A DNA stretch of 64,000 nucleotides, from IMG/VR virus record IMGVR_UViG_3300042154_002208, one strand, 5' to 3'. Of this stretch, positions 1 through 27,116 are shown piece after piece; positions within the stretch are counted from its first letter, which is position 1, and each line of letters begins with the position of its first letter. A model generated the notes under the pieces. That model was not told where the DNA came from. It did no database searches and worked only from the letters and a program-made list of their open reading frames with translations. The translations under genes were made by a program, and so were the position numbers. The DNA is from a virus. Its lineage: Duplodnaviria > Caudoviricetes.

Positions 1-663
1 TTAACCAACTGGTTAAACATATCTGCTTCTTCTTACGGATGTATGGCAATTAAAACAGATGGTACATTATGGGGATGGGGCCATAATTCTTATGGTAGAT
101 TGGGGCTAGGTGATACTACAGCTAGAAATAGTCCGGTACAAGTAGGTGCGGGAACTACTTGGGCAACCGTAACTGCAAAGGCTGCGACGGCGGCGGCAAT
201 TAAAACTGATGGTACTCTATGGACCTGGGGATACGGAAATAATGGGCAATTGGGTTTAGGTACTACTACAGCTAGATCTAGTCCAGTACAAGTCGGTTCT
301 TTAACCAATTGGTCAGTGATTCACATTTTAACAAATGGCACTATGCTTGCGGTTAAAACAGATGGAACTTTGTGGGGTTGGGGCAATAGCGGCAATGGTC
401 AACTGGGTTTAGGTGCCGCCCCTGTGTATTATTCAAGTCCGAAGCAAATAGGTGCGCTAACAACATGGAGAAACGTTAGTGGCGCGGCCGCTAATAGTTC
501 TGCAATTAAAACCGATGGTACTGTATGGACCTGGGGAAATAATGCTCAAGGACAACTTGGCCTAAATAATAAGACAAGTTATTCAAGTCCAAAACAAGTT
601 GGCGCATTAACTACTTGGACAGCCATTAGTAGTGCGAGTCACACATTATTAATTTCAAGTTAA
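1..663 (+). CDS. RCC1/BLIP-II repeat beta-propeller protein, 5'-truncated by window edge
   Basis: Frame is open from base 1 ([27 protein letters not shown]...); ~50-aa repeats [22 protein letters not shown]...SSPxQVG. Confidence 0.9.
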
Positions 664-670
664 AACAAAA

Positions 671-1786
671 ATGGCAATTACATTCAATGGTATCTCAATC
701 GGATCAGGGGTAGCCCTAACAATTACTCCGCCTCCTCCCCCTCCTCCTCCGCAATACTTGTGGGCATGGGGAAGTGGTGCAGATGGCAGGTTAGGCCTTG
801 GCAGCACTACAAACAGATCTAGTCCGGTACAGGTTGGTGATCTAACCACTTGGTCAAGTGTTGCTGCTCACGAAAAGCACAGCCTGGCAATCAAAACAGA
901 TGGCACGCTATGGGCATGGGGCCGCAATGGCACTGGCGAATTAGGCGATAATACTGGTGTAAATAAATCTAGTCCAGTACAGATTGGCGCATTAACCACC
1001 TGGTTAAATATTGCTGCGGGCAGATACACCAGCTTTGCAATTAAAACCGATGGTACATTGTGGGCCTGGGGCTACAATGCTTATGGCCGATTGGGCCTGG
1101 GCAACCTCACCTATAGATACAGTCCAGTACAAGTAGGAGGCGATTCCAATTGGTCAAGTGTTGCTAGTGGCGTCAATCACACTCATGCAATTAAAACTAC
1201 TGGTACATTATGGGCCTGGGGATACAATGGATATGGCACACTGGGTAATAATAGCAACACTTCGCTAAGCAATCCAGTACAAATTGGCGCATTAACCAAT
1301 TGGTCAAAGATTTCCGTTGCCTTTGTTCACACCCTAGCCGTCAAAACAGATGGCACGCTATGGGCATGGGGCCGCAATACAATTTATGGCACTGACTATG
1401 GCATATTAGGGTTAGGTGACACCAGCGCACCAAACAGTCCAGTACAAGTTGGTGCATTGACAACTTGGTCAAGTGTCAGTGCTGGTTTCTACCACAGCCT
1501 AGCCGTCAAAACAGATGGTACATTATGGTCTTGGGGCGGTAATAGTGGTCTATTGGGGCTCGGTGATACCTCACATAGATCTAGTCCAACTCAAGTTAGC
1601 GCAGGAACTACTTGGTCAAAAATTGATGCAGCTGACAATGCTAGTCTGGCTATAAAAACTGATGGCACATTGTGGGGTACTCTTGGAGCAGTTACACCTA
1701 CTTCAAACAGTCTAGTACAAATTGGGTCGTCAACCAATTGGTCAAATATTGCTGGCGGCAGTTCACACTACCTGGCAATTGGTTAA
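671..1786 (+). CDS. RCC1/BLIP-II repeat 7-bladed propeller protein with N-terminal peptide and poly-Pro linker (putative adhesin)
   Basis: MAITFNGISIGSGVALTIT-PPPPPPPP then 7 x ~50-aa RCC1-like repeats. Confidence 0.9.
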   Translation: MAITFNGISIGSGVALTITPPPPPPPPQYLWAWGSGADGRLGLGSTTNRSSPVQVGDLTTWSSVAAHEKHSLAIKTDGTLWAWGRNGTGELGDNTGVNKSSPVQIGALTTWLNIAAGRYTSFAIKTDGTLWAWGYNAYGRLGLGNLTYRYSPVQVGGDSNWSSVASGVNHTHAIKTTGTLWAWGYNGYGTLGNNSNTSLSNPVQIGALTNWSKISVAFVHTLAVKTDGTLWAWGRNTIYGTDYGILGLGDTSAPNSPVQVGALTTWSSVSAGFYHSLAVKTDGTLWSWGGNSGLLGLGDTSHRSSPTQVSAGTTWSKIDAADNASLAIKTDGTLWGTLGAVTPTSNSLVQIGSSTNWSNIAGGSSHYLAIG

Positions 1787-9236: not shown

Positions 9237-10354
9237 GTGGTATAATGAACATGGTAGTGGGCTCTTCATTTGGCCCACCAATTCCAGTATATGCTTTGTA
9301 TGGAACTGGTCGAAACACTGATGGTCAGCTTGGTTTCGGCAATACTTCATCTCCGTATGTAAATTTTACGCAAAGTGGTTCGAGTACTGATTGGTCGGAA
9401 ATCGAGGCCACCTTTTATAGTGCAAATGCAATTAAAACCGATGGTACCATGTGGGCATGGGGATATAATGGTTATTATCAATTAGGCTTAGGCGATAGTA
9501 CAAACAGATCTAGCCCTGTTCAAATTGGATCTAGTACAAATTGGGCAAAAATTAAAGGTGGGGGAGAATTTAGACTTGCCCTCACAACCAACGGTTCTCT
9601 GTGGTCTTGGGGAAAAAATTCATATGGACAGGGCGGCAGGGGAATTACCTATATTGAGGCCGTCCCAGGTCAAGTTGGAGCGTTAACTAATTGGTCAAAA
9701 ATAGCAACCGGCGCATTCACTTCAACATCAATTAAAACAGATGGCACATTGTGGGCATGGGGAAGAAATGCATACGGTGAAATAGGTAATGGTAATACTT
9801 CAAATTATTCTAGCCCAATACAAATAGGTACATTAAATAATTGGTCCAATGTTACTGCCGGATTTTCATTTGTTGCATCGATTAAAACTGATGGTACACT
9901 TTGGGTATGGGGCAGAAATTACAAAGGGGGATTGGGGTTAGGTGATACTACAAATAGATCTAGTCCAGTACAGGTTGGCGCAGGAAACAATTGGTATTCA
10001 ATTGGTGCAGCCAGAGACTCAACCTATGGAATTAAAACCGATGGTACATTATGGGCGTGGGGTCAAAATTATGCGGGCGCACTGGGGCTCGGGGATACTA
10101 CAAATAGATCTAGTCCAGTACAGGTTGGCGCATTAACTAATTGGTCAAAAATTGATGGCAGTACTGGGGGATATCATGTTGCAGCTATTAAAACTGATGG
10201 CACCCTGTGGACATGGGGATACAATCTTTATGGACAATTAGGCCTAGGGTCGTCGGGCAATTATGCTAAAAGATCCAGTCCTGTGCAAGTTGGCTCTTTG
10301 ACCAATTGGTTAGCTGTTAGTGCAGGATATAATCATACCTTGGCATTAGGATAA
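9233..10354 (+). CDS. RCC1/BLIP-II repeat propeller protein translationally coupled to the fibre gene (putative tip adhesin)
   Basis: ATGA overlap with the fibre stop; MSGIMNMVVGSSFGPPIP then 7 RCC1-like repeats. Confidence 0.9.
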   Translation: MSGIMNMVVGSSFGPPIPVYALYGTGRNTDGQLGFGNTSSPYVNFTQSGSSTDWSEIEATFYSANAIKTDGTMWAWGYNGYYQLGLGDSTNRSSPVQIGSSTNWAKIKGGGEFRLALTTNGSLWSWGKNSYGQGGRGITYIEAVPGQVGALTNWSKIATGAFTSTSIKTDGTLWAWGRNAYGEIGNGNTSNYSSPIQIGTLNNWSNVTAGFSFVASIKTDGTLWVWGRNYKGGLGLGDTTNRSSPVQVGAGNNWYSIGAARDSTYGIKTDGTLWAWGQNYAGALGLGDTTNRSSPVQVGALTNWSKIDGSTGGYHVAAIKTDGTLWTWGYNLYGQLGLGSSGNYAKRSSPVQVGSLTNWLAVSAGYNHTLALG

Positions 10355-10917: not shown

Positions 10918-10929
10918 ATTGGAAATATT

Positions 10930-12248: not shown

Positions 12249-12273
12249 CAAAATATCTTAAATCCGATAAAAT
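12245..12273 (+). promoter_or_regulatory. sigma70-type promoter
   Basis: TTGACA(12245-50)-17 nt-TAAAAT(12268-73) upstream of the sulfotransferase fusion gene. Confidence 0.6.
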
Positions 12274-12305
12274 ATTAATATATACCACAATAATTAGGTG
12301 ATTTT

Positions 12306-15483: not shown

Positions 15484-15491
15484 TATAAATA
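15484..15491 (+). promoter_or_regulatory. T4 late promoter TATAAATA
   Basis: Exact consensus upstream of 15526 and the nine-gene propeller array. Confidence 0.75.
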
Positions 15492-15525: not shown

Positions 15526-15912
15526 ATGGCATTATTTGTACAAGTATTAGACGGCGAAGTTAAACAAGTTTGGGACTCTGCACCACCCGAAGGCCAAGAA
15601 GGCTGGAGAAATGCAGTAGAAGTTCGTGCTGAACTAGTTGCACATCGTCAACAGTTTGCGGCTCACCGCTATGATCTAAATGTAGATCCAGTTCAAATCA
15701 TCTGGGACGCAGTAGATATCACAGTTGAAGATCGTAAAAACAGCATGATTTCTAATGCTAATTTTGCGGTTGCTCGCATGAATATGCAAAATCAGATGAC
15801 ACCCGGAACTCATACCGCAGAAGCAATTGCCGCAGCACAAGCTACAGCAGACGCTAAAGTTGCAGCAGTTAATGCCGCAACAACACACGACGAATTAGAC
15901 GCGTTAGTTTAA
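15526..15912 (+). CDS. Hypothetical tail-fibre assembly-like protein
   Basis: AGGAG RBS; C-term KVAAVNAATTHDELDAL resembles fibre chaperone tails. Confidence 0.6.
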   Translation: MALFVQVLDGEVKQVWDSAPPEGQEGWRNAVEVRAELVAHRQQFAAHRYDLNVDPVQIIWDAVDITVEDRKNSMISNANFAVARMNMQNQMTPGTHTAEAIAAAQATADAKVAAVNAATTHDELDALV

Positions 15913-15932
15913 TCTAAAAGAAGAGGTGTAAT

Positions 15933-17063
15933 ATGGCCCTGACCATTTCCGGTTTTACTATGACCGGTAATCTTACCGCGGTACATATTCCACCCCCTCC
16001 TCCATCCTATTACCTTTGGTCATGGGGTCGCAACAATTATGGTTTATTGGGGGTAGGAGATACTATAGATAGATCTAGTCCAGTACAGGTTGGTGCTCTT
16101 GGTAATTGGTCAACTGTTTCTGGCGGAGTTTATCATAATCTATCCATTAAAACAGATGGTACCTTATGGTCATGGGGTAGAAATTATTTAGGCTTTTTAG
16201 GTCTTGGCGAGACCACCGCTAGATCTAGTCCAGTGCAAGTAGGTGCATTAACTAATTGGTCAAAAATTGCTACAGGTGGAGGCCTACACAGTTTAGCTAT
16301 AACAACCGATGGGTATTTATGGACTTGGGGTTACAATTATTATGGACAATTAGGATTAGGTAATACTACAGGATATTCAAGTCCAAAACAGATTGGCGCA
16401 TTAACTAATTGGTCAAGTATTTCTGCAGGCGGTAATCACAGTTTAGCTATCAAAACAGATGGTACATTATGGGTATGGGGGTATAACCAGTCAGGTCGAT
16501 TGGGCCTTGGCGATACTAATAATAGATCTAGCCCAGTACAAATTGGGGCTCTAACCACTTGGTCAAGTATTTCTGCAAGCAACGGCGGCTGTGCCGCTAT
16601 CAAAACAGATGGTACTTTGTGGGTTTGGGGCGGTAATTATTTTGGGCAGTTAGGATTAGGCAATACCACATATTATTCAAGTCCCAAACAAGTTGGCGCA
16701 TTAACTACTTGGTCAAGTATTTCTGCAAGCGGCGGCGGCTGTGCCGCTATCAAAACAGATGGTACTTTGTGGGTTTGGGGTAGAAATTTTGGGGCAGGTT
16801 CTTTAGGGTTAGGTGATACTATATCTAGATCTAGTCCAGTACAAATGGGGGCATTAACCAATTGGGCAAGTATTTCTGCAGGAGAACTTTTTTGTGTGTC
16901 CATTAAAACAGATGGTACACTATGGTCATGGGGACACAATGCGTATGGCCGGGTTGGAGATGGTACAACTGTTCTTAAATCTAGCCCAGTACAAATTGGA
17001 TCATCAACTACCTGGTCAAGTATTTCTGCAGGTAGCGCTACTCCATTAGCTATTAAATCTTAA
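15933..17063 (+). CDS. RCC1/BLIP-II propeller paralogue (array 1/9)
   Basis: MALTISG...PPPPP + 7 repeats; GAGGTG RBS. Confidence 0.9.
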   Translation: MALTISGFTMTGNLTAVHIPPPPPSYYLWSWGRNNYGLLGVGDTIDRSSPVQVGALGNWSTVSGGVYHNLSIKTDGTLWSWGRNYLGFLGLGETTARSSPVQVGALTNWSKIATGGGLHSLAITTDGYLWTWGYNYYGQLGLGNTTGYSSPKQIGALTNWSSISAGGNHSLAIKTDGTLWVWGYNQSGRLGLGDTNNRSSPVQIGALTTWSSISASNGGCAAIKTDGTLWVWGGNYFGQLGLGNTTYYSSPKQVGALTTWSSISASGGGCAAIKTDGTLWVWGRNFGAGSLGLGDTISRSSPVQMGALTNWASISAGELFCVSIKTDGTLWSWGHNAYGRVGDGTTVLKSSPVQIGSSTTWSSISAGSATPLAIKS

Positions 17064-17082
17064 TAAAAATTAAAAGAACAAA

Positions 17083-18213
17083 ATGGCACTAACAATTTCA
17101 GGCGTAAGAATAAACGGAGCATTGTCTGCGGTGCATATTCCACCTCCTCCGCCACCTGCGTATTACCTTTGGGCTTGGGGTGCTAATGATTACGGTGAGT
17201 TAGGCCAAGGCGATTATAATATTAATAGATCTAGTCCAGTACAGATTGGTTCATTGACCAATTGGTTAAGTATTTCAGCCGGTGGTTATCACAGCGCGGC
17301 CACCTTCCCAAACGGGACTATATGGACATGGGGCAGTAATTATGTCGGCCAATTAGGGTTAGGAAATACTACAAATAGATCTAGTCCGGTACAAGTTGGT
17401 GCCTTAACCACATGGTCAAGTATTTCTACTGGCCAATACCACAACCTGGCCGTTAAAACAGATGGTACCATGTGGACATGGGGTGGAAATAGTTATGGCA
17501 AATTGGGGTTAGGCGATACCGCAAATAGATCTAGTCCAGTACAAATTGGCGCTTTAACTACTTGGTCATCTGTGAGTGCAGGAGGAAATATCAGTGCGGC
17601 AATTAAAACAGATGGTACATTGTGGGCGTGGGGTAGAAATTATCACGGGTCATTGGGCCAAGGTAATACTACAGATAGATCTAGTCCAGTACAAGTTGGT
17701 TCTCTAACTAATTGGTTGTCTGTTGCTGCTGCATATGTTTGTTGTCACGCAATTAAAACAGATGGTACCTTATGGTCATGGGGTAGAAATTATGCTGGCG
17801 TCTTGGGTTTAGGAGGTACTACAAATATTTCCAGTCCAGCACAAGTTGGTGCATTAACAAATTGGTCAACTGTATCTAACAGAGAACACTATTGTGCAGC
17901 AATTAAAACAGATGGTACATTATGGTCATGGGGCAGGGGTTCTCAAGGCAAATTAGGGTTAGGCGACATTACCAATAGATCCAGCCCGACTCAGGTTGGT
18001 GCATTAACTACTTGGTTAAGTGTTTCTGCAGGATATTCTCACAGCGCTGCTATTAAAACTGATGGTACTCTGTGGTCGTGGGGTAGCGGCGGCCAAGGTA
18101 GATTGGGCCTAGGTGATACTACATCTAGATCTAGTCCAACTCAAGTTGGAGGATTAACTACTTGGTTATATATTGCTGCAGGAAGTACTTTCACCGCCGC
18201 TATTAGTAACTAA
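17083..18213 (+). CDS. RCC1/BLIP-II propeller paralogue (array 2/9)
   Basis: MALTISG...PPPPPP + 7 repeats. Confidence 0.9.
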   Translation: MALTISGVRINGALSAVHIPPPPPPAYYLWAWGANDYGELGQGDYNINRSSPVQIGSLTNWLSISAGGYHSAATFPNGTIWTWGSNYVGQLGLGNTTNRSSPVQVGALTTWSSISTGQYHNLAVKTDGTMWTWGGNSYGKLGLGDTANRSSPVQIGALTTWSSVSAGGNISAAIKTDGTLWAWGRNYHGSLGQGNTTDRSSPVQVGSLTNWLSVAAAYVCCHAIKTDGTLWSWGRNYAGVLGLGGTTNISSPAQVGALTNWSTVSNREHYCAAIKTDGTLWSWGRGSQGKLGLGDITNRSSPTQVGALTTWLSVSAGYSHSAAIKTDGTLWSWGSGGQGRLGLGDTTSRSSPTQVGGLTTWLYIAAGSTFTAAISN

Positions 18214-18229
18214 TTAAAAGAAGAACAAA

Positions 18230-19351
18230 ATGGATCTAATCGGAATAACTATATTTGGCGGAGTCAACATTCAGCCTCCGCCTCCGCCACCTCCTGTGCC
18301 CACATACTATCTATGGTCTTGGGGCAGAAATTATAAAGGTGTAATGGGTCTAGGTGATACTACCAATAGATCCAGTCCCAATCAAGTAGGCTCAATGAGT
18401 GATTGGTTATCTTTGGCTGCAGGAAGATACCATATGACAGCAATTAAAATCGATAACACCTTATGGTCTTTTGGTCAAAATTCAAGCGGTCAATTGGGGC
18501 TAGGCGATACCACCGACAGATCAAGTCCAACTCAAATCGGAGCATTGGCAACCTGGGCGTCATTAAGTTGCGGGGATCAGCACGCCATAGCAATTAAAAC
18601 AGATGGTACCTTGTGGGCATGGGGATACAATGGTATCGGCGGCTTGGGGCTAGGAAATTCTACAAGTTATTCAAGCCCAATGCAAGTTGGCGCGCTAACA
18701 ACTTGGTCAAGTATTGGTACCGGCGGATACAATTCGTTTGCTGTTAAAACCGATGGTACATTATGGACATGGGGATATAATGCACAAGGACAACTGGGTC
18801 TAGGCAATACCGCAGCTAGATCTAGTCCAGTACAGATTGGTGCATTAACTACTTGGTCAAAAGTTGATGGTGGAGATAAGCACACCATGGCAATTAAAAC
18901 AGATGGTACCTTGTGGGCATGGGGTGCTAGCAATCAGGGCCAAACGGGAACGGGAAGTTCTTCGTCTAGCCCAGTACAAGTTGGCGCATTGACAACCTGG
19001 GCAACATTAGGTATAACATATTTGTCATCCTCGGCAATTAAAACCGATGGTACATTATGGATGTGGGGTTCCAACGAGTCGGGACATTTAGGCCTAGGCA
19101 ATACTACCAATCAAGGTAGTCCGGTACAAGTGGGCGCGCTGACTACTTGGTCAAAAGTTAGTTTAGGACAATTCCATACTATGGCAGTTAGAACCGACGG
19201 CACATTATGGACATGGGGATTCAATGTTCAGGGTCAACTTGGTATTGGTAACACCACATATTTTTCCAGTCCAAAACAAGTTGGTGCATTAACTACCTGG
19301 TTGAATGTTACTGCAGGATATAGACATTCAACTGCAATTACATCGCAATAA
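18230..19351 (+). CDS. RCC1/BLIP-II propeller paralogue (array 3/9)
   Basis: MDLIGITIFGG...PPPPPPP + 7 repeats. Confidence 0.9.
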   Translation: MDLIGITIFGGVNIQPPPPPPPVPTYYLWSWGRNYKGVMGLGDTTNRSSPNQVGSMSDWLSLAAGRYHMTAIKIDNTLWSFGQNSSGQLGLGDTTDRSSPTQIGALATWASLSCGDQHAIAIKTDGTLWAWGYNGIGGLGLGNSTSYSSPMQVGALTTWSSIGTGGYNSFAVKTDGTLWTWGYNAQGQLGLGNTAARSSPVQIGALTTWSKVDGGDKHTMAIKTDGTLWAWGASNQGQTGTGSSSSSPVQVGALTTWATLGITYLSSSAIKTDGTLWMWGSNESGHLGLGNTTNQGSPVQVGALTTWSKVSLGQFHTMAVRTDGTLWTWGFNVQGQLGIGNTTYFSSPKQVGALTTWLNVTAGYRHSTAITSQ

Positions 19352-19380
19352 CCCGTTATACTAATTAAAAGAACAAAAAA

Positions 19381-20514
19381 ATGCCATTAATTTTTTCAGG
19401 TATAACCACAAAAGGTAGTTTCGAGATGGTGTATACTCCACCACCGCCTCCCGAACCAACATCTTATCTATGGTCGTGGGGTAGTGGAAGCGACGGTCGA
19501 CTAGGTTTAGGTAATACTACAAGTTACTCAAGTCCAAAACAAATTGGTTCGTTAGGCTCTTGGTTGAATATTGCTGCCGGGTATAATCACGGCATGGCCC
19601 TCAAAACAGATGGTACACTTTGGTCATGGGGTTACAATGATACGGGTCAGTTAGGTTTGGGGGATCTTACAGATAGATCTAGTCCAGTACAGATTGGCGC
19701 AGGAACCACTTGGTCAACAATTGAAGGAAGTTTCTTCTACAACATAGCCATTAAAACAGATGGTACCATGTGGTCATGGGGTTATAATAATAGCGGTCGA
19801 TTGGGGTTAGGCAATACTACAAGTATATCTAGTCCAGTACAAATTGGTGCATTAACTACTTGGTCAAAGATTAATGCAGGTGGTCAGCATACCATGGCCA
19901 TTAAAACAGATGGTACCATGTGGGCATGGGGAGTTAATCAACACGGTGCACTGGGGCTAGGCGATACCACAAATAGATCTAGTCCAGTACAAATTGGTTC
20001 ATTAACTACTTGGTTAAATATTGCTGGAGGGTACAGGGCCAGTATGGCCGTCAAAACAGATGGTACGTTATGGTCATGGGGGATGAATGCTTTTGGTCAG
20101 TTAGGATTAAATAATTATACATATTATTCTAGCCCAAAACAGGTAGGGGGTCTAACCAATTGGTTAAGTGTTGCTGGGGGTAAATATGCTCACAGCGTGG
20201 CCCTGAAAAATAATGGCACCTTGTGGGGATGGGGTCGCAATTATATAGGAATGTTAGGTTTAGGTGGTACCACTCAATATATAAGCCCAGTTCAAGTTGG
20301 TGCTTTAACCAATTGGTCAAGTATTGATGCCGGTAGAAGTCACAGCGTGGCCATTAAAACAGATGGTACCATGTGGGCTTGGGGTGGAAATGGATCCGGT
20401 CGATTGGGGTTAGGTGATACCACAAATAGATCAAGCCCAACACAGATTGGTTCATCAACTAATTGGTCAAAGATTGATGCAGTTGGTACGTTCACCTTGG
20501 CTATTAGCTATTAA
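19381..20514 (+). CDS. RCC1/BLIP-II propeller paralogue (array 4/9)
   Basis: MPLIFSG...PPPPP + 7 repeats. Confidence 0.9.
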   Translation: MPLIFSGITTKGSFEMVYTPPPPPEPTSYLWSWGSGSDGRLGLGNTTSYSSPKQIGSLGSWLNIAAGYNHGMALKTDGTLWSWGYNDTGQLGLGDLTDRSSPVQIGAGTTWSTIEGSFFYNIAIKTDGTMWSWGYNNSGRLGLGNTTSISSPVQIGALTTWSKINAGGQHTMAIKTDGTMWAWGVNQHGALGLGDTTNRSSPVQIGSLTTWLNIAGGYRASMAVKTDGTLWSWGMNAFGQLGLNNYTYYSSPKQVGGLTNWLSVAGGKYAHSVALKNNGTLWGWGRNYIGMLGLGGTTQYISPVQVGALTNWSSIDAGRSHSVAIKTDGTMWAWGGNGSGRLGLGDTTNRSSPTQIGSSTNWSKIDAVGTFTLAISY

Positions 20515-20530
20515 TAAAAAGAAAAACAAA

Positions 20531-21652
20531 ATGGCATTTACTTTTTCAGGCTTTGCAACCAACGGCAGTTTTAATCTGGTATGTCCTATACCTCCTCCAC
20601 CTCCCGCATATTATTTATGGGGATGGGGCAAAAATACCGATGGTACCGTAGGTGATAACACAACTACTGGTAGATCTAGTCCTGTGCAAGCCGGCACATT
20701 AACCACTTGGTTGAATGTTTCTGCAGGTGAATATCATGGTTTAGCACTTAACTCCGATGGCACCATGTGGTCTTGGGGAAGAAATAGTCAAGGTCAATTA
20801 GGGTTAGGTAATACTACACGTGTATCTAGTCCGGTGCAGGTTGGTGCTTTAACCACTTGGTCAACTATCGTAGGCGGGTCACAACACAGCTTAGCAGTTA
20901 AAACAGATGGCACATTGTGGTCATGGGGATATAATGCTTATGGTAAACTTGGACAGGGAGATACTATATCTAAATCTAGTCCAGTACAAATTGGTGGATT
21001 AACTAATTGGTTAAATGTTGCTGCTGGATATAGTTCCTCAGCTGTTAAAACAAATGGTACATTATGGACTTGGGGTTTTGGTATCTATGGTTTATTAGGG
21101 CTAGGTAATACTACACATAGATCTAGTCCAGTTCAAGTTGGTGCATTGACCAATTGGTCTAGCTCGACATTTGGATATCTACATTGTATGGCAATTAAAA
21201 CAGATGGCACGATCTGGGCATGGGGATATAATCCTAACGGACAACTTGGGTTAGGCAATACTACAAATATATCTAGTCCAGTTCAAGTTGGATCCGATAC
21301 AAATTGGGCAAGTATTGAAGCAGGTGAATATCAGACTTTAGCAATTAAAACCAATGGTACATTATGGTCATGGGGATGGAATAATTTGGGCAGACTGGGA
21401 CTCGGTAATACTACAGCATATTCAAGTCCAAAACAAATTGGTGCATTAACTACTTGGTCAAAAGTTTCTACGGGCTATCATGTCGCTGCAATTAAAACGG
21501 ATGGCACTCTTTGGGCTTGGGGAAGAAATACCGATGGTGAATTGGGTCTAGGTGATACTACAGATAGATCTAGTCCAGTTCAAATTGGCGCATCAACTGC
21601 TTGGTTAAATGTTTCGCTGGCTAATTATCATAGTATAGCAATCTCAAATTAA
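20531..21652 (+). CDS. RCC1/BLIP-II propeller paralogue (array 5/9)
   Basis: Start moved to ATG 20531 (MAFTFSG) by analogy with paralogues and the conserved spacer. Confidence 0.9.
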   Translation: MAFTFSGFATNGSFNLVCPIPPPPPAYYLWGWGKNTDGTVGDNTTTGRSSPVQAGTLTTWLNVSAGEYHGLALNSDGTMWSWGRNSQGQLGLGNTTRVSSPVQVGALTTWSTIVGGSQHSLAVKTDGTLWSWGYNAYGKLGQGDTISKSSPVQIGGLTNWLNVAAGYSSSAVKTNGTLWTWGFGIYGLLGLGNTTHRSSPVQVGALTNWSSSTFGYLHCMAIKTDGTIWAWGYNPNGQLGLGNTTNISSPVQVGSDTNWASIEAGEYQTLAIKTNGTLWSWGWNNLGRLGLGNTTAYSSPKQIGALTTWSKVSTGYHVAAIKTDGTLWAWGRNTDGELGLGDTTDRSSPVQIGASTAWLNVSLANYHSIAISN

Positions 21653-21666
21653 AAGAAGAACAAAAA

Positions 21667-22803
21667 ATGGCAGTCACATTTTCAGGCGGCGGATACGCAG
21701 GGGTAACAATTAACATAATTCAACCCACTCCTCCTCCTCCTACATACTATTTATGGGCATGGGGAGATGGCGGTAGCGGGCGATTGGGGTTAGGCGATAC
21801 CGCAAATAGATCTAGTCCAGTTCAAATTGGCGCATTAAGTAATTGGTTAAGTATTTCTATAGGCGATTACCATGGAGTTGGGCTTGACGTTGATAAAAAA
21901 CTTTGGACGTGGGGTAATAATTCCATAGGTGCTTTAGGTTTAGGTAATACTACAAATTATTCTAGCCCAGTACAAGTTGGCGCTTTAACTAACTGGGCAA
22001 TTCTGCGTGGGGGCGGAGAAGGTACAGCAGCTATTAAAACAGATGGTACCATGTGGGTATGGGGAGACGGCCGGTTTGGCAGGCTTGGGCTCGGCGATAC
22101 CGCAAATAGATCTAGTCCTACTCAGGTTGGAGCATTGACTAATTGGGCATCTATAAGTAACAGCTCTTGGAATATTTATGGAATTAAAACCGATGGCACA
22201 TTATGGGCATGGGGATATGGCTCAAGTGGCCAACTAGGCGATGGTACTACTATAAATAAATCTAGCCCAATACAAATTGGAGCATCTACAGATTGGAGCA
22301 AATGTGAAGGTGGAAACGGAATTGCGGGAGCGATTAAAACTAACGGCACACTATGGATGTGGGGATATAATTACAGAGGCAATTTAGGATTAGGCGATAT
22401 TACATATAGATCTAGTCCAGTGCAGGTTGGCGCTTTAACTAATTGGTTGCATATATCTGCTTCTAGATATAGTACAGCATCTATTAAAACAGATGGTACC
22501 TTGTGGATATGGGGTAGCAATTATGCTGGAACATTGGGCTTAGGTGATACTATACATAGATCTAGTCCAGTACAAGTTGGCGCACTAACTACTTGGTCAA
22601 AACTTGCTATTCCACAAGCAACATATTCGCGTGCAGCAATTAAAACAGATGGTACCTTGTGGACGTGGGGTAGCAATGGTAGTGGCCAGTTGGGGGTGGG
22701 AGATACTGCGAATAGAGGTAGTCCAGTACAAGTTGGGACCAATACAAACTGGGTAGAAGTAGTTCAAGGTAACGCCTCAAAGTTTGCATTAACCCCACAA
22801 TAA
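21667..22803 (+). CDS. RCC1/BLIP-II propeller paralogue (array 6/9)
   Basis: MAVTFSG...PTPPPP + 7 repeats. Confidence 0.9.
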   Translation: MAVTFSGGGYAGVTINIIQPTPPPPTYYLWAWGDGGSGRLGLGDTANRSSPVQIGALSNWLSISIGDYHGVGLDVDKKLWTWGNNSIGALGLGNTTNYSSPVQVGALTNWAILRGGGEGTAAIKTDGTMWVWGDGRFGRLGLGDTANRSSPTQVGALTNWASISNSSWNIYGIKTDGTLWAWGYGSSGQLGDGTTINKSSPIQIGASTDWSKCEGGNGIAGAIKTNGTLWMWGYNYRGNLGLGDITYRSSPVQVGALTNWLHISASRYSTASIKTDGTLWIWGSNYAGTLGLGDTIHRSSPVQVGALTTWSKLAIPQATYSRAAIKTDGTLWTWGSNGSGQLGVGDTANRGSPVQVGTNTNWVEVVQGNASKFALTPQ

Positions 22804-22820
22804 TTAAAAAGAAAAACAAA

Positions 22821-23951
22821 ATGGCATTTACTATTTCAGGAATCGGTGGATACTCGGGTATATCATTTACCACTACTCAACCACCACCACCTCCGATATA
22901 TTATCTTTGGTCATGGGGTCAAGGTATTAGTGGTCGATTGGGGTTAGGTAATACTACAGATTATTCTTCTCCAAAACAGATTGGTGCATTGACCACTTGG
23001 TCAAGTATTGCTGCAGCAGAAGGTTGGGCAATGGCTCTAAAAACAGATGGCACAATGTGGTCTTGGGGCAGAAATTATGCAGGTCAATTAGGCTTAGGTA
23101 ATACTATATATTATTCTTCTCCAAAACAGATTGGAGCTTTAACTACTTGGGCAAATATTAGTACAGGGAAAGCGTCTAATATGTTTGCTATAAAAACCAA
23201 TGGTACCTTATGGGCGTGGGGTGGTAATTATGGTTACAAGTTAGGATTGGGCAATACTACATCATATTCTAGTCCAGTACAAGTAGGTTCCTTAACTGAT
23301 TGGGCAATTATAATTTCACTTGCTGGAAACGGTGCTGCAGCAATTAAAACCAATGGTACTATGTGGTCATGGGGACAAGGATCTAACGGGCAATTGGGAT
23401 TGGGTAATACTACAAATACATCTAGCCCACAACAAATTGGCGCTTTAACCACTTGGTCAAATATTACTAATATTAGATTTGGTGCCCTTGCAACTAAAAC
23501 AGATGGAACTTTATGGACATGGGGCGCTAATGGTTACGGCGAACTTGGATTGGGCGATACTACAAATAGATCTAGTCCTGTACAGATTGGCGCATTAACT
23601 ACTTGGCAAAGTGTTTCCGCTGGGTATTATCACGGCCTGGCTGTAAAAACAGATGGTACTTTATGGTCTTGGGGAAGAAATGCAGTAGGCTCATTGGGGT
23701 TAGGAGATACTACAAATAGATCTAGTCCAGTACAAGTTGGTGCATTAACTACTTGGTTAAATATTTCAGGAGGTGTTGAACACAATCTGGCCATTAAAAC
23801 AGATGGTACCATGTGGTCATGGGGCGATAATCAATCTGGTCGATTGGGTATAGGCGATACCACAAATAGATCTAGTCCAGTGCAGATTGGATCATTAACA
23901 AATTGGGCAAATGTTTCTGCAGGTGGTTCTTTCAGCCTGGCTATCGGTTAA
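22821..23951 (+). CDS. RCC1/BLIP-II propeller paralogue (array 7/9)
   Basis: MAFTISG...PPPPP + 7 repeats. Confidence 0.9.
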   Translation: MAFTISGIGGYSGISFTTTQPPPPPIYYLWSWGQGISGRLGLGNTTDYSSPKQIGALTTWSSIAAAEGWAMALKTDGTMWSWGRNYAGQLGLGNTIYYSSPKQIGALTTWANISTGKASNMFAIKTNGTLWAWGGNYGYKLGLGNTTSYSSPVQVGSLTDWAIIISLAGNGAAAIKTNGTMWSWGQGSNGQLGLGNTTNTSSPQQIGALTTWSNITNIRFGALATKTDGTLWTWGANGYGELGLGDTTNRSSPVQIGALTTWQSVSAGYYHGLAVKTDGTLWSWGRNAVGSLGLGDTTNRSSPVQVGALTTWLNISGGVEHNLAIKTDGTMWSWGDNQSGRLGIGDTTNRSSPVQIGSLTNWANVSAGGSFSLAIG

Positions 23952-23977
23952 AAAAAAAATAAAAAAGAAGAACAAAA

Positions 23978-25105
23978 ATGGCATTTACTTTATCTGGCAT
24001 AAGCGACATAACCGGTCTTAACCTCACAACTACTCAACCTGTGCCTCCAGAATTTTACTTATGGTCATGGGGTTACCATGGTGGATATGGGCAACTCGGT
24101 TTAGGTGATGCTACTATAAGTAGATCTAGTCCAACACAGGTTGGCTCATTAACTAATTGGAGCAGTACTGCAGGAAAATACCTTCTGTCAATTGCCGCAA
24201 AAACCGACGGCACCATGTGGTCATGGGGTTACAATTCACAAGGTCGATTGGGGTTAGGCGATACCATACATAGATCTAGTCCTGTACAAATTGGAGCATT
24301 AACCACTTGGGCAAAAATAACCGCAATAAATACTGGCGGAGTTGCTATTAAAACAGACGGCACCTTATGGACATGGGGCGGTAATTATTACGGGGCATTG
24401 GGCGTAGGTGATACCATACATAGATCTAGTCCGGTACAAGTTGGTGCATTAACTACTTGGTTAAATATTTCAGGTGGTACATATCACACCATGGCAACTA
24501 AAACAGATGGCACCCTATGGATGTGGGGTAGAAACTATCATGGTCGATTGGGGTTAGGTGATACTAATAATAGATCTAGTCCAGTACAAGTTGGCGCATT
24601 AACTAATTGGTTAAAAGTTTCTGCGGCATATAACAATGCGGCCATCAAAACAGATGGTACAATGTGGGTATGGGGTCGCAATAACACCGGGCAATTGGGT
24701 TTGGGAGATACCACAAGCAGATCTAGTCCAACACAAGTTGGTGCTTTAACTACTTGGTTAAATGTTGCTGCAGGCACTTATACTAACATGGCCATTAAAA
24801 CAGACGGCACCATGTGGTCTTGGGGCAGGAATGCATACGGTCAATTGGGTTTAGGTAATACCACAGATAGATCTAGTCCAGTACAAGTTGGCGCATTAAC
24901 TAATTGGTCAAGTGTTAGTAGTCTAGGCCTCACCACGCATGCAATTAAAACAGATGGTACCATGTGGGCATGGGGCTCTAATGCAGATGGTAAATTAGGA
25001 TTAGGCAATACTACAAACTATTCAAGCCCTAAACAAATTGGCGCACGCACTACGTGGATTAGTGTTACGAACACAGACTACGTGATCCTGGCAATCTCAA
25101 ATTAA
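23978..25105 (+). CDS. RCC1/BLIP-II propeller paralogue (array 8/9)
   Basis: MAFTLSG...PVPP + 7 repeats. Confidence 0.9.
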   Translation: MAFTLSGISDITGLNLTTTQPVPPEFYLWSWGYHGGYGQLGLGDATISRSSPTQVGSLTNWSSTAGKYLLSIAAKTDGTMWSWGYNSQGRLGLGDTIHRSSPVQIGALTTWAKITAINTGGVAIKTDGTLWTWGGNYYGALGVGDTIHRSSPVQVGALTTWLNISGGTYHTMATKTDGTLWMWGRNYHGRLGLGDTNNRSSPVQVGALTNWLKVSAAYNNAAIKTDGTMWVWGRNNTGQLGLGDTTSRSSPTQVGALTTWLNVAAGTYTNMAIKTDGTMWSWGRNAYGQLGLGNTTDRSSPVQVGALTNWSSVSSLGLTTHAIKTDGTMWAWGSNADGKLGLGNTTNYSSPKQIGARTTWISVTNTDYVILAISN

Positions 25106-25120
25106 AAAGAAAAACAAAAA

Positions 25121-26242
25121 ATGGCATTTACTTTTTCAGGCTTAAATTTCGTCGGCGACGTTAGCGCGCAAGCAGTCTTTCCCACTCCCGAACCTTATTT
25201 GTGGGGGTTTGGGCACAATGCTTATGGTCAGTTGGGAGATGGTACCACTACAAATAGATCTAGTCCAGTACAGGTTGGCGCAGGAACCACTTGGTCAAAG
25301 ATTGAGGCAGGTCAAAGTCAAAGCGTAGCCCTCAAAACAGATGGTACCATGTGGTCATGGGGTAACAACAGCGCGGGTCGATTAGGGTTAGGCGATACTA
25401 CCAATAGATCTAGTCCAGTACAAATAGGTTCTCTAACTACTTGGTCAAAAATAATCAGTAAAGTTCATTCGTTAGCTATAAAAACGGATGGATCTTTGTG
25501 GGGCTGGGGTAGAAATGGTTTCGCGGGCTTAGGTCTAGGCAATACCACATATTATTCAAGTCCAAAACAAATAGGCGCATTAACCAATTGGTCGAATATT
25601 TCTGCACGTGGCCATAGTCTGGCAATTAAAACAGATGGTACCTTGTGGTCTTGGGGCGGCAATAGTTCTGGCAATCTAGGCCTAGGTAATACTACAGGTA
25701 TATCTAGTCCACAACAAGTTGGTTCATTGACAAATTGGCTAAGTGTAGCTGCCGGCGGATATTTTAGTTCAGCTGTCAAAACAGGTGGTACATTATGGGC
25801 ATGGGGAAGTAATCAATTTGGGCAATTGGGTTTAGGTGATACCGCAAATAGATCTAGTCCAGTACAGATTGGATCATTGACAAATTGGTTAAGTGTTGCC
25901 GGAGGCCAATATCATATTTCAGCAATTAAAACCGACGGCACTCTATGGACATGTGGCCGCGGCAGCAGTGGCGCGCTTGGCGTAGGCGATACCGAAAATA
26001 GATCTAGCCCAACTCAGGTTGGCGCATTAACTACTTGGTACATCAGCTCAAGCAGCAACGGTTTTAATTATTCAATTAAAACAGATGGGACATTGTGGAC
26101 ATGGGGCAGAAATGATTTCTATGGACAACTTGGTTTAGGTGATACTGCAAATAGATCTAGCCCAGTTCAGGTCGGAGCATTAACTAATTGGACAAATATT
26201 GCCACTGGAGAAATTCATGGCTTAGCAATTTCAACTGGATAA
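25121..26242 (+). CDS. RCC1/BLIP-II propeller paralogue (array 9/9)
   Basis: MAFTFSG...PTPEP + 7 repeats. Confidence 0.9.
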   Translation: MAFTFSGLNFVGDVSAQAVFPTPEPYLWGFGHNAYGQLGDGTTTNRSSPVQVGAGTTWSKIEAGQSQSVALKTDGTMWSWGNNSAGRLGLGDTTNRSSPVQIGSLTTWSKIISKVHSLAIKTDGSLWGWGRNGFAGLGLGNTTYYSSPKQIGALTNWSNISARGHSLAIKTDGTLWSWGGNSSGNLGLGNTTGISSPQQVGSLTNWLSVAAGGYFSSAVKTGGTLWAWGSNQFGQLGLGDTANRSSPVQIGSLTNWLSVAGGQYHISAIKTDGTLWTCGRGSSGALGVGDTENRSSPTQVGALTTWYISSSSNGFNYSIKTDGTLWTWGRNDFYGQLGLGDTANRSSPVQVGALTNWTNIATGEIHGLAISTG

Positions 26243-26259
26243 CACAGTATTTGTGTTTT
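26241..26259 (+). terminator. Weak hairpin at the end of the propeller array
   Basis: AACACA-GTATT-TGTGTT followed by TT; AT-rich stem. Confidence 0.3.
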
Positions 26260-26266
26260 AACAGGC

Positions 26267-26305: not shown

Positions 26306-27097
26306 ATGACACAGAGAATTTTAGTAATGGGTTTACCAGGCTCAGGCAAGACATATCTTTCCCAGTATATTTTAGAATACCTGCAAAGAGAAAAGAAAAC
26401 AGTTTCTTGGCTCAATGCTGATGATGTTCGTAAAAAATACAATGATTGGGATTTCAGTAAAGAGGGTCGCATTCGTCAAAGTTTACGTATGCGAGAACTT
26501 GCTGATGGCATGACAACTGATTATGTTATTTGCGATTTTGTTGCACCTTTACCCGAGATGCGAAACAATTTCAAAGCAGACTGGACTGTATGGGTTGATA
26601 CAATTGAAAAAGGCCGCTTTGAAGATACCAACAAGGCATTTGTGCCGCCAGATGTATATGACTTTAGAATAACAGAACAAAATGCAGAGAAGTGGGCAGA
26701 GTTTATTGTGGCTCACATTTATGATAACAGACGCAGACCAACATTTGACTGGCAAAAAGAAAGCGCGTTGCTATTAGGCAGATATCAACCGTGGCACCCT
26801 GGGCATAGAGCATTGTTCGAAAGAGCAATTGCCAAGACAGGACAAGTTATTATACAAGTACGCGATTGTCAAGGTTGGAATGGTTCTAATCCTTTCGAAT
26901 TTAGGAAAGTTAAAGAATTTATTGAGAGAGATCTCGATACTTTATTTCAAGGGCAATATCAAATTATGTTAGTTCCTAACATAACCGAAATTGTTTATGG
27001 AAGAGATGTTGGCTACAGAATAACGCAGGAAACATTTTCTGACGAGATACATTCTATTTCTGCTACGAAAATTCGTAAAGAAATGGGATTGCAATAA
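26306..27097 (+). CDS. cysC: Adenylylsulfate (APS) kinase fused to an HxGH nucleotidyltransferase domain (possible minimal PAPS synthase)
   Basis: GLPGSGKT P-loop, LNADDVR, EGRIRQ, DFVAP (CysC-like); C-term GRYQPWHPGH, YGRD, ISATKIR. Confidence 0.75.
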   Translation: MTQRILVMGLPGSGKTYLSQYILEYLQREKKTVSWLNADDVRKKYNDWDFSKEGRIRQSLRMRELADGMTTDYVICDFVAPLPEMRNNFKADWTVWVDTIEKGRFEDTNKAFVPPDVYDFRITEQNAEKWAEFIVAHIYDNRRRPTFDWQKESALLLGRYQPWHPGHRALFERAIAKTGQVIIQVRDCQGWNGSNPFEFRKVKEFIERDLDTLFQGQYQIMLVPNITEIVYGRDVGYRITQETFSDEIHSISATKIRKEMGLQ

Positions 27098-27100
27098 ATA
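27093..27100 (+). promoter_or_regulatory. Late promoter variant AATAAATA overlapping the APS kinase stop
   Basis: GCAATAAATA, 17 nt before the endonuclease ATG. Confidence 0.45.
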
Positions 27101-27116
27101 TATTTAGGCAAAATTT

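What the first reader, a model, noticed from the sequence alone, without database searches (positions are those of the whole stretch)
15933..26242. Arsenal of at least 13 same-size RCC1/BLIP-II propeller paralogues, nine in tandem
Seen: 13 genes (<1-663, 671, 9233, nine at 15933-26242, 42349); the complete ones are 371-378 aa. Each is a ~25-aa leader plus 7 x ~50-aa blades. The scaffold is near-invariant (WxWGxNxxGxLGLG(D/N)TTxRSSPxQ(V/I)GALTxW...AIKTDGTL), with variation concentrated in two loops per blade rich in Y/G/N/S/R/H. Known: BLIP-II and RCC1 propellers bind protein partners through loops on one face. Inference: a phage-encoded library of fixed-scaffold, variable-surface binders, analogous to lamprey VLRs or DARPins. 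It takes up over a fifth of the window and sits among tail-fibre genes under a late promoter, so it probably acts as an interchangeable receptor-binding repertoire.
Basis: partly seen in the sequence, partly recalled or inferred. Interest (0 to 1): 0.85.

Follow-up and report, generated by a model that had tools for sequence, protein, structure and literature searches.

The report
Swappable propeller heads on phage leaders
An uncultured freshwater T4-like phage carries 13 genes for same-sized seven-bladed propeller proteins whose variable loops sit on one face; sister phages keep each gene's short leader but have exchanged the propeller behind it, which fits interchangeable binding heads carried on the virus particle, though that location is not yet shown.

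Summary
There are 13 RCC1-repeat genes, 12 of them complete at 371-378 aa. Each has a leader of about 25 aa followed by 7 blades of 50 aa.

Variation is confined to two alternate loops per blade, which by strand topology lie on one face. At those sites identity is 10%, against 8% expected by chance, and they are rich in Tyr and Ser. The scaffold is 78% identical.

New here:
- In three sister phage haplotypes the backbone has dS of about 0.3. The intergenic spacer and leader of each slot stay 90-100% identical. The propeller bodies are either replaced (dS 1.0 or more) or nearly identical (dS 0.01-0.03).
- One body sits behind a different leader in a sister phage.
- One leader carries a glycine-rich domain instead of a propeller.
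- A conserved 128-aa protein adjoins the propeller genes, and its fold resembles tail-assembly chaperones.
- Sulfotransferase and APS-kinase genes accompany the set.

The proteins match PHROG 4219. Members of that family were found by mass spectrometry in virions of phage W70, and RCC1-like proteins in virions of phAPEC6 and GAP32.

Best reading: virion-borne binding heads that can be swapped (confidence 0.55). Virion location and receptor binding are untested here. The late-promoter evidence is weak.

This scan has noted similar tagged RCC1 arrays on other DNA (jumbo coliphages, a Paenibacillus phage, marine phages). I class it as a new variant of a known kind.

The parts
1..663 (+). RCC1 propeller paralogue, 5' end cut by the window edge (last 4 blades)
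671..1786 (+). RCC1 propeller paralogue (371 aa), leader MAITFNGISIGSG...PPPPPPPP
9233..10354 (+). RCC1 propeller paralogue (373 aa) with a different leader (MSGIMNMVVGSSFGPP). Its start lies just before the end of the 1876-aa fibre-like ORF.
15484..15491 (+). TATAAATA, a match to the T4 late-promoter consensus, 34 nt before the ATG of the partner gene. Consensus match only.
15526..15912 (+). Conserved 128-aa partner protein (beta domain plus two long helices); its fold resembles phage tail assembly chaperone and DUF4376 proteins
15933..17063 (+). Slot A: leader (about the first 72 nt) plus propeller body
17083..18213 (+). Slot B: leader plus propeller body. In sister phage L002/L158 the same leader carries a 292-aa Gly_rich_2 domain instead.
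18230..19351 (+). Slot C: leader plus propeller body. This body, largely 90-100% identical in nt but mosaic, lies behind the slot-F leader in L157.
19381..20514 (+). Slot D: 98.6% nt identical to L002/L158 (dS 0.02-0.09 across body site classes, 0.03 at conserved sites; below the backbone)
20531..21652 (+). Slot E: leader kept, body replaced relative to L002 and L157
21667..22803 (+). Slot F: leader 98-100% nt identical in sister phages, body about 60%
22821..23951 (+). Slot G: 98.9% nt identical to L002/L158, where it sits two slots earlier
23978..25105 (+). Slot H: body 76% nt identical to L002 (intermediate)
25121..26242 (+). Slot I: leader 97-100% nt identical, body replaced
42349..43479 (+). 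Dispersed RCC1 paralogue (376 aa), leader class MQITNVNFALGGMN..PPVP, which recurs in relatives L004, L015 and L048
12306..14842 (+). Sulfotransferase fusion (585 aa) and a second sulfotransferase: accompanying genes, found in 107 and 97 of 122 related loci of 10 kb or more
26306..27097 (+). APS-kinase fusion directly after the array; homologue in 78 of 122 related loci

Best explanation
Each gene is a two-part cassette. The first part is a slot-specific N-terminal leader of about 20 residues. Its alternating hydrophobic pattern (M-A-h-T-h-S-G-h-x-x-x-G-x-h-x-h) suggests a beta-hairpin, and a polyproline spacer follows it. The second part is a seven-bladed RCC1-type propeller with a rigid, conserved scaffold. 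One face of the propeller displays 14 hypervariable loops rich in Tyr and Ser.

I infer that the leader docks the protein onto the virion (fibre, baseplate or another surface site) by folding onto a partner. I infer that the variable face binds host-envelope or other surface ligands. The conserved 128-aa neighbour would then act as an assembly chaperone or adaptor.

Diversity does not arise in place. Whole bodies, and sub-gene patches that include the loops, are exchanged by homologous recombination. Exchange occurs between slots and between co-circulating phages, which draw on a very large environmental pool. The non-repetitive spacer and leader stay fixed.

Shown: the anatomy, the one-face variability, the conservation of leaders with exchange of bodies, a head of another fold on the same leader, and the conserved neighbours. 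Inferred: virion location, docking by the leader, the binding function, and the chaperone role.
For: One-face variability:
- Hypervariable columns are confined to the start of the long loop after strand TLWxW and to the short loop before strand xxAIKT.
- In the confident model (pLDDT 88, pTM 0.86) these are alternate loops of a four-strand meander, so they lie on one face.
- The short-loop hypervariable sites align with the W and R of the UVR8 GWRHT motifs.
- At hypervariable sites, identity between paralogues is 10% against 7.9% expected by chance. Tyr is 11.9% there and 0.9% in the scaffold. The scaffold is 78% identical.

Exchange of bodies behind fixed leaders:
- Against L002/L158 and L157, flanking genes are 93-99% identical in protein with dS 0.06-0.37.
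- Leaders are 90-100% identical in nt. Bodies A, C, E, F and I are about 60-68% identical, with dS 1.0-1.3 at conserved codons. Bodies D and G have dS 0.01-0.03 at conserved and intermediate codons.
- In L157, slot F combines the window's F leader (100% nt) with the window's C body.
- In L002, slot B combines the window's B leader with a Gly_rich_2 domain (Pfam E 3e-20). Homology stops at the proline linker and resumes at the next spacer.
- Leader conservation between slots is at the protein level, because codons differ.

The partner protein:
- In 55 loci fetched through the partner, 39 have an RCC1 gene directly upstream and 4 directly downstream; 54 of 55 contain at least one RCC1 gene.
- Its model (pLDDT 92) matches BFVD entries named phage tail assembly chaperone or DUF4376 at E 1e-4 to 1e-2.
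- In the cultured phage S-SRM01, a DUF4376 gene lies between two RCC1 genes, directly after a tail-fibre gene that carries a Peptidase_S74 domain.

Virion evidence by analogy:
- The window's proteins match PHROG 4219 at E 1e-44 to 1e-71. That is the family of W70_237-239, detected in purified virions with 141-233 spectra (PMC11370258).
- Six RCC1-like proteins of phAPEC6 and gp1 of GAP32 were also found in virions (PMC7247149, PMC5259590).
- Some relatives carry fn3, TIG or He_PIG domains.
Against: - There is no direct evidence that these particular proteins are in the virion or bind anything.
- The leader is modelled as disordered (pLDDT about 50), and no docking partner is identified.
- The complex prediction of propeller with the 128-aa partner gave no verdict.
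- The partner has no clear match among solved structures, and its viral matches have only moderate TM (0.4-0.66).
- Leader conservation could partly be passive: leaders are the non-repetitive part, so they escape recombination between paralogues.
- The late-promoter evidence is weak.
- The phAPEC6 authors proposed a role inside the capsid in DNA organisation.
Confidence: 0.55

Rival explanations
1. The propellers are packaged inside the capsid, or are injected, and organise DNA or act in the newly infected cell. The leader would be a capsid-targeting tag like the T4 internal-protein signal.
For: The phAPEC6 and W70 authors suggested a DNA-condensation role for the virion RCC1-like proteins. 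Mass spectrometry shows only that the protein is in the particle, not where. A short N-terminal tag shared by different folds is also how T4 internal proteins are addressed (established knowledge).
Against: The leaders lack the T4-type MKT..(L/I)xE cleavage pattern. A hypervariable Tyr/Ser-rich face and wholesale exchange of heads are typical of proteins facing a changing external target. The neighbours are fibre-type genes and a chaperone-like protein. Relatives are fused to fn3, TIG and Ig-like domains. The alternative head is a glycine-rich domain of a type that also lies among the fibre-type genes here.
Confidence: 0.12
2. The propellers are non-structural intracellular binders made late in infection, for example inhibitors of host defence or host enzymes. 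This would resemble the repeat-protein expansions of giant viruses. Each variable face would be tuned to a variable host protein.
For: RCC1-like domains in eukaryotes and BLIP-II in bacteria bind proteins through propeller faces (established knowledge; structural matches). Rapid turnover between sister phages also fits an arms race with host defence. Nothing here shows virion incorporation.
Against: They belong to the same PHROG as proteins found in virions. They are tightly linked to a chaperone-like partner and to fibre genes across hundreds of loci. The same leader carries a glycine-rich domain of the kind found among the fibre-type genes in this window. Nine to thirteen different leaders conserved at the protein level are hard to explain for soluble inhibitors.
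Confidence: 0.15
3. The propellers are virion decorations that serve mainly as carriers for sulfated or glycosylated groups added by the accompanying enzymes. They would give general adhesion (to particles, mucus or cell surfaces), not specific receptor recognition.
For: Homologues of the sulfotransferase fusion occur in 107 of 122 related loci of 10 kb or more, and the APS-kinase fusion in 78 of 122. The same gene company is seen in S-SRM01. The best Pfam match is Sulfotransfer_3. The variable loops are 12% Tyr and 15% Ser.
Against: A mere carrier would not need a hypervariable face at random-level identity, or frequent exchange of heads. No modification site is identified. The enzymes could equally act on host surface glycans.
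Confidence: 0.13

Closest known systems
RCC1-like paralogue arrays of Rak2-like jumbo coliphages (121Q 13 copies, PBECO4 6, phAPEC6 11, GAP32 gp1) and of phage W70 (W70_237-239)
   Same: These are tandem stand-alone RCC1-repeat proteins of about 40 kDa in myoviruses. W70_237-239 belong to PHROG 4219, which the window's proteins also match. Several RCC1-like proteins of W70, phAPEC6 and GAP32 were detected in purified virions.
   Different: Identity is only about 31% over half the protein. The published work gives no role beyond a guess at DNA condensation. It does not report one-face variability, slot leaders with exchanged bodies, a partner protein, or sulfation genes. The host lineage here is a freshwater T4-like phage.
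Modular receptor-binding proteins with a conserved N-terminal anchor and exchangeable C-terminal head (multi-RBP phages such as Klebsiella phage PhiK64-1, CBA120 tailspikes, SP6/K1-5 adaptors; from my own knowledge)
   Same: Related phages share a conserved N-terminus and differ in a horizontally exchanged C-terminal binding module, and one virion carries many different heads. The sharp homology breakpoint at the linker seen here matches that pattern.
   Different: The anchor here is only about 20 residues plus a proline spacer, not a folded domain. The heads are monomer-like propellers, not trimeric beta-helix spikes. Attachment to the virion has not been shown.
UVR8, HERC2 RLD, RPGR and RCC1 (eukaryotic RCC1-like domains)
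   Same: They share the seven-bladed fold (TM 0.83-0.87, 24-31% identity) and clear sequence homology (E 1e-75 to UVR8). The hypervariable short loop aligns with the UVR8 GWRHT interface motif.
   Different: Here there is no Ran-GEF or photoreceptor context. The conserved His of the G..H motif is kept in only 37 of 85 blades. Blades are a uniform 50 aa with no insertions.
BLIP-II (Streptomyces beta-lactamase inhibitor protein II)
   Same: It is a seven-bladed propeller that binds a protein through loops on one face (established knowledge).
   Different: The structural match is much weaker (TMq about 0.6, 271-residue chain). The window's proteins have no secretion signal.
Fixed-scaffold variable-surface binders: DGR target proteins (BPP-1 Mtd), lamprey VLRs, designed repeat binders
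   Same: The scaffold is invariant, diversity is concentrated on one surface, and the composition is rich in Tyr and Ser, as in antibody paratopes.
   Different: Nothing resembling somatic or retroelement-driven diversification is seen. No near-identical template and variable repeat pair exists; paralogues are 64-73% identical in nt. Synonymous sites are saturated. Diversity is a germline repertoire reshuffled by recombination.

Membership tests
RCC1 repeat / RCC1-like domain (Pfam PF00415, PF25390) | Repeats of about 50-60 aa that match the RCC1 profile above the curated cut-off | tested here: met
   PF00415 scores 211-237 bits with 6-7 stretches, and PF25390 scores 230-246 bits against a cut-off of 150. 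Blade spacing is 48-52 aa.
RCC1 repeat / RCC1-like domain (Pfam PF00415, PF25390) | Seven-bladed beta-propeller with four strands per blade | tested here: met
   The AF2 model has pLDDT 88 and 28 strands. Foldseek gives TM 0.83-0.87 to UVR8, HERC2, RPGR and RCC1.
RCC1 repeat / RCC1-like domain (Pfam PF00415, PF25390) | Guanine-nucleotide exchange on Ran, or chromatin binding | not testable with these tools
   There is no Ran in bacteria or phages. The database label 'chromosome condensation' is inherited from the eukaryotic founder.
BLIP-II | Close structural similarity to BLIP-II, with blades of about 40 aa | tested here: not met
   BLIP-II chains rank 46th and lower, with TMq 0.59-0.61. Blades here are 50 aa.
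BLIP-II | Secreted, with an N-terminal signal peptide | tested here: not met
   By reading the leader sequences, they lack a basic n-region and a long hydrophobic core, and a polyproline run follows them. No signal-peptide predictor was run.
Virion RCC1-like proteins of phages (PHROG 4219) | Profile match to PHROG 4219 | tested here: met
   E 1e-44 to 2.5e-71 for four paralogues. W70_237-239 are assigned to the same PHROG.
Virion RCC1-like proteins of phages (PHROG 4219) | Physical presence in purified virions | not testable with these tools
   Shown only for W70, phAPEC6 and GAP32 proteins in the literature.
Modular receptor-binding proteins (conserved N-terminal anchor, exchangeable head) | N-terminus conserved and C-terminal module replaced between closely related phages, with a sharp breakpoint | tested here: met
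   Leaders are 90-100% nt identical and bodies about 60%, in eight slot pairs against each of two sister haplotypes (two bodies, D and G, are about 99% identical to L002). There is a chimera of the F leader with the C body, and the B leader carries a Gly_rich_2 head.
Modular receptor-binding proteins (conserved N-terminal anchor, exchangeable head) | A dedicated assembly chaperone gene next to the head gene | tested here: inconclusive
   The 128-aa gene is adjacent in 43 of 55 loci, and its fold resembles tail assembly chaperone and DUF4376 entries. It has no match among solved structures, and the complex prediction gave no verdict.
Modular receptor-binding proteins (conserved N-terminal anchor, exchangeable head) | The anchor attaches to the baseplate or fibre, and the head binds the host receptor | not testable with these tools
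   This needs virion structure or binding assays.
Diversity-generating retroelement targets | A variable repeat with a near-identical template repeat, differing at adenines | tested here: not met
   No paralogue pair in the window exceeds about 73% nt identity. Divergence includes saturated synonymous sites over the whole body. No reverse transcriptase appeared among the neighbours that were annotated, but not every ORF was scanned.

The most novel reading that the evidence does not exclude
The array and its constant companions form one undescribed system. The companions are the sulfotransferase fusions, the APS-kinase fusion that would supply PAPS, and the chaperone-like partner. In this reading a phage builds a repertoire of antibody-like binding heads on the virion. 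Their Tyr- and Ser-rich loops would be sulfated or glycosylated by phage enzymes to raise affinity, as sulfotyrosines do in some antibody CDRs. The heads would be reshuffled between fixed docking leaders by recombination within the phage population.
Probability: 0.12. Interest if true: 0.9.

Novelty: new variant of a known kind. Interest (0 to 1): 0.62.

Why it matters
Databases label phage RCC1-like genes as 'regulator of chromosome condensation' and file them under nucleotide metabolism (PHROG 4219). The anatomy and population genetics here point to a widespread class of interchangeable surface-binding modules instead. The word-limited search found at least 7,886 clusters at 90% identity with E of 1e-30 or better, and more than 590 stretches in IMG/VR.

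If the heads decide adsorption, this locus would be a main determinant of host range in abundant freshwater T4-like phages. It would also give a natural, compact, monomeric scaffold whose binding face tolerates full randomisation. The sharp leader/body breakpoints offer a simple marker for following cassette turnover in time-series metagenomes.

Tried and rejected
- Complex prediction of propeller A with the 128-aa partner gave no verdict (score 0.25, mark 0.32). It counts neither for nor against binding.
- The partner has no Pfam or PDB sequence match and no clear solved-structure match by Foldseek or VIA.
- Per-site dN/dS as a test of positive selection was abandoned. Replaced bodies have saturated dS (1.0 or more), and the near-identical pairs have too few changes.
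- The late promoter as evidence of timing was rejected. The motif count is at chance, and the motif is rare upstream of related RCC1 genes.
- The window's own phage was sought among isolated phages. There was no nucleotide match, and the primase is only about 43% identical to Melnitz and cyanomyovirus primases. No whole genome is held.
- The second small ORF, 1826-2179, which follows the gene at 671-1786, is not detectably related to the 128-aa partner and has no Pfam family.
- Leader-like N-termini of ORFs 28224-29120 and 29682-31109 are not significant against the leader profile (E about 3).
- Leader classes of more distant clades were found only on RCC1 bodies in the loci held.
- The 1876-aa ORF is not homologous to the S-SRM01 giant baseplate protein.
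- Literature searches found no paper on this family in cyanophages or freshwater phages. One hit was a false match to RCC strain numbers.

Full report
OBSERVATION

The window holds 13 + strand ORFs of one family: 1-663 (cut by the window edge), 671-1786, 9233-10354, nine head-to-tail genes at 15933-26242, and 42349-43479. The fifth tandem gene begins at ATG 20531. The 12 complete proteins are 371-378 aa. All 13 copies are 51-64% identical to the first. Pfam finds 6-7 RCC1 repeats in each, plus the RCC1-like-domain model PF25390. Cutting at the LWxWG anchor gives seven blades per protein, spaced 48-52 aa apart.

Over 85 aligned blades, entropy above about 2.9 bits occurs only at blade positions 6, 8, 9, 11 and 39-43. 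Of 41 hypervariable alignment columns, 40 fall in these two segments. The one correction is that the fold is closest to UVR8, HERC2, RPGR and RCC1 (TM 0.83-0.87), with BLIP-II well behind at about 0.6.

STRUCTURE AND THE VARIABLE FACE

AlphaFold2 with the 13-sequence alignment gives a confident propeller (pLDDT 88, pTM 0.86) of 28 strands. Residues 1-25 are at low confidence.

In each repeat the strand order is TLWxW, SSPVQ(I/V)G, WSxIxxG, xxxAIKT.
- The hypervariable residues sit at the start of the long loop after the first strand, and in the short loop before the fourth strand together with its first residues.
- In an antiparallel meander, alternate loops lie on the same side. So both variable segments of all seven blades are on one face.
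- The conserved ALTNW and KTDGT turns are on the other face.
- The short-loop sites align with the W and R of the UVR8 GWRHT motifs. From my own knowledge, these lie in the UVR8 dimer interface.

At hypervariable columns, mean identity between paralogues is 10%, against 7.9% expected from composition. At conserved columns it is 78%. Tyr is 11.9% and Ser 14.8% at hypervariable sites, while Tyr is 0.9% in the scaffold.

WHAT GENOME THIS IS

The neighbours include a gp61-type primase, homing endonucleases, 2OG oxygenases and fibre-like genes. The primase is only about 43% identical to those of Melnitz, Mosig and cyanomyoviruses. There is no nucleotide match among isolated phages, and no genome is held. 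The window comes from an uncultured T4-like phage. Its close relatives are IMG freshwater contigs.

THE KEY NEW RESULT: FIXED LEADERS, EXCHANGED BODIES

Three sister haplotypes were recovered.
- L002, L008, L001 and L158 are one phage, 99.995-100% identical across separate contig records; the longest contig is 150.6 kb.
- L157 is a further haplotype, and L159 and L160 are partial ones.

Flanking genes are 93-99% identical in protein, with dS 0.06-0.37. Within the array the pattern is different:
- The spacer and the first 60 nt of every gene are 90-100% identical (77% for slot E against L002).
- The propeller bodies of slots A, C, E, F and I are only about 60-68% identical. That is no closer than any two paralogues.
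- At codons for conserved residues, these bodies have dS 1.0-1.3. So they are replacements, not fast-evolving orthologues.
- Bodies D and G are 98.6-98.9% identical to L002, with dS 0.01-0.03 at conserved and intermediate codons. That is about ten times below the backbone, which implies recent exchange. Body H is intermediate.
- G also occupies a different slot in L002.

Two cases show that leader and body assort independently.
1. In L157 the slot-F gene has the window's F leader (100% over about 90 nt), followed by the window's C body. That body is 87% identical in protein, and most 30-nt windows are 90-100% identical. The differences are clustered in the WG-x-N-x-x-G loops and the adjacent TTxxSSPxQ stretch of blades 4-7, and they include synonymous changes. 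This points to patchy conversion.
2. In L002/L158 the slot-B leader (MALTISGVRINGALTAVHIP) is fused to a 292-aa glycine-rich domain (PF21722, E 3e-20). It has one mismatch to the window over the spacer plus 20 codons. Homology ends at the proline linker and resumes in the spacer just before the slot-C start codon.

Related leader-like N-termini with a proline run also head glycine-rich or other bodies in L015-L017, L048, L052 and L004.

Across slots the leaders share a protein pattern, M-A-h-T-h-S-G-h-x-x-x-G-x-h-x-h then prolines. They use different codons, so the conservation is at the protein level. They have none of the features of a secretion signal.

CONSERVED COMPANIONS

The 128-aa gene at 15526-15912 heads the array.
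- In 55 loci fetched through this protein, with room on both sides, 39 have an RCC1 gene directly upstream and 4 directly downstream. 54 contain at least one RCC1 gene.
- It is far more conserved than the propellers.
- Its model (pLDDT 92) has a five-strand beta domain and two long helices. It has no clear solved-structure relative.
- Among predicted viral structures it matches entries named phage tail assembly chaperone, tail fiber assembly protein and DUF4376, at E 1e-4 to 1e-2.
- The best of these by model coverage (TMq 0.66) is a 214-aa DUF4376 protein of the cultured freshwater phage S-SRM01. The only 214-aa gene in the stretch I read, gp336, scores for DUF4376 (E 1.6e-5). It lies between RCC1 genes gp335 and gp337, directly after a fibre gene with a Peptidase_S74 chaperone domain and the baseplate wedge genes.

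S-SRM01 also interleaves its RCC1 genes with a TPR protein, a 2OG oxygenase, a sulfotransferase and a glycosyltransferase. The window has the same company at 10426-15458 and 26306-27097. Homologues of the sulfotransferase fusion occur in 107 of 122 related loci of 10 kb or more, and the APS-kinase fusion in 78.

The window's 1876-aa ORF shares only its last 100 residues with isolates. The best match is annotated as a collagen-like minor tail protein of phage S-CBS2.

VIRION EVIDENCE, BY ANALOGY ONLY

The window's proteins match PHROG 4219 at E 1e-44 to 1e-71.
- Three tandem PHROG 4219 proteins of phage W70 (40-43 kDa) were found in purified virions with 141-233 spectra (PMC11370258).
- Six of the eleven RCC1-like proteins of jumbo phage phAPEC6 are in its virion proteome (PMC7247149).
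- GAP32 gp1 is a structural protein. Arrays of 13 and 6 copies are recorded in 121Q and PBECO4 (PMC5259590).
- The authors of those papers could only guess at a DNA-condensation role.
- Among the best 120 database relatives, some carry fn3, TIG or He_PIG domains.

MECHANISM

I commit to the following reading, with confidence 0.55. The genes encode virion-borne binding heads. The leader would be a short docking peptide that folds onto a virion partner. The proline run would be a spacer. The hypervariable face would bind surface ligands. The 128-aa protein would assist assembly or attachment.

Diversity is a germline repertoire. It is reshuffled by homologous recombination through the repetitive, conserved blade-coding stretches, between slots and between co-infecting phages. 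Leaders stay put because they are unique sequence and because they are needed.

Only the anatomy, the one-face variability, the exchange pattern and the gene linkage are shown. Location, docking and binding are inferred.

RIVALS

- An internal or injected capsid cargo (0.12).
- Non-structural intracellular binders (0.15).
- Carriers for sulfate or sugar that give general adhesion (0.13).

COMPARISON AND NOVELTY

Tandem RCC1-like paralogues in phage virions are on record. This scan has also noted tagged RCC1 arrays with swappable heads in jumbo coliphages, a Paenibacillus phage, marine phages and a CPR bacterium. So the kind is known.

What is new here:
- a demonstration at nucleotide resolution, in natural sister genomes, that leaders are fixed while bodies and even folds are exchanged;
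- the quantified one-face randomisation;
- the conserved chaperone-like partner;
- the extent of the family in freshwater T4-like phages.

I rate this as a new variant of a known kind, with interest 0.62.

WEAK POINTS

- The late-promoter claim is weak. There are 7 TATAAATA matches against 8.95 expected, although all 7 are on the + strand and one lies 34 nt before the partner gene. Only 2 of 262 related RCC1 genes have the motif within 80 nt upstream.
- The complex prediction gave no verdict.
- Positive selection could not be tested, because synonymous sites are saturated.

Noticed in passing
window 12306-14842 and 26306-27097; S-SRM01 locus L237:15126-23617: Sulfotransferase fusions and an APS-kinase fusion travel with the RCC1 genes: they occur in 107, 97 and 78 of 122 related loci of 10 kb or more (the two sulfotransferase queries may cross-hit). 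S-SRM01 has the same company. The best Pfam match is Sulfotransfer_3, and the variable loops are 12% Tyr, so sulfation of the propellers is a testable idea.
   Followed up: partly
window 27098-27747 and 29124-29637: The homing-endonuclease ORF (27117-27761) and the 2OG oxygenase ORF (29117-29671) have no counterpart in sister phage L002/L158. There the flanking sequence is contiguous, so these are recent insertions or deletions.
   Followed up: partly
window 3606-9236: Only the last 100 or so residues of the 1876-aa fibre-like ORF match isolated phages (S-CBS2 'collagen like minor tail' and S-B28, 40-46% identity). Its end overlaps the start of the RCC1 gene at 9233, which has a leader of a different class.
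   Followed up: partly
window 2521-3552 and L002:5675-6553: The glycine-rich (PF21722) protein that occupies slot B in the sister phage shares its last 43 residues at 84% identity with the window's separate glycine-rich ORF. Head domains may therefore share a common C-terminal module.
   Followed up: no
window 1826-2179: A 117-aa ORF (phrog_7759, no Pfam family) directly follows the RCC1 gene at 671-1786. Its position recalls the 128-aa partner, but no sequence similarity to it is detectable.
   Followed up: partly
window 15915-26260, intergenic spacers: All spacers in the array are 15-30 nt and share an A-rich motif (TAATTAAAAGAAGAACAAAA-ATG) with no classical Shine-Dalgarno sequence. The spacer is conserved together with the leader in sister phages.
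   Followed up: no
L157:12693-13410: In haplotype L157 no propeller-sized ORF was found in the roughly 700-nt interval where slot C would lie. Its content was not examined.
   Followed up: no
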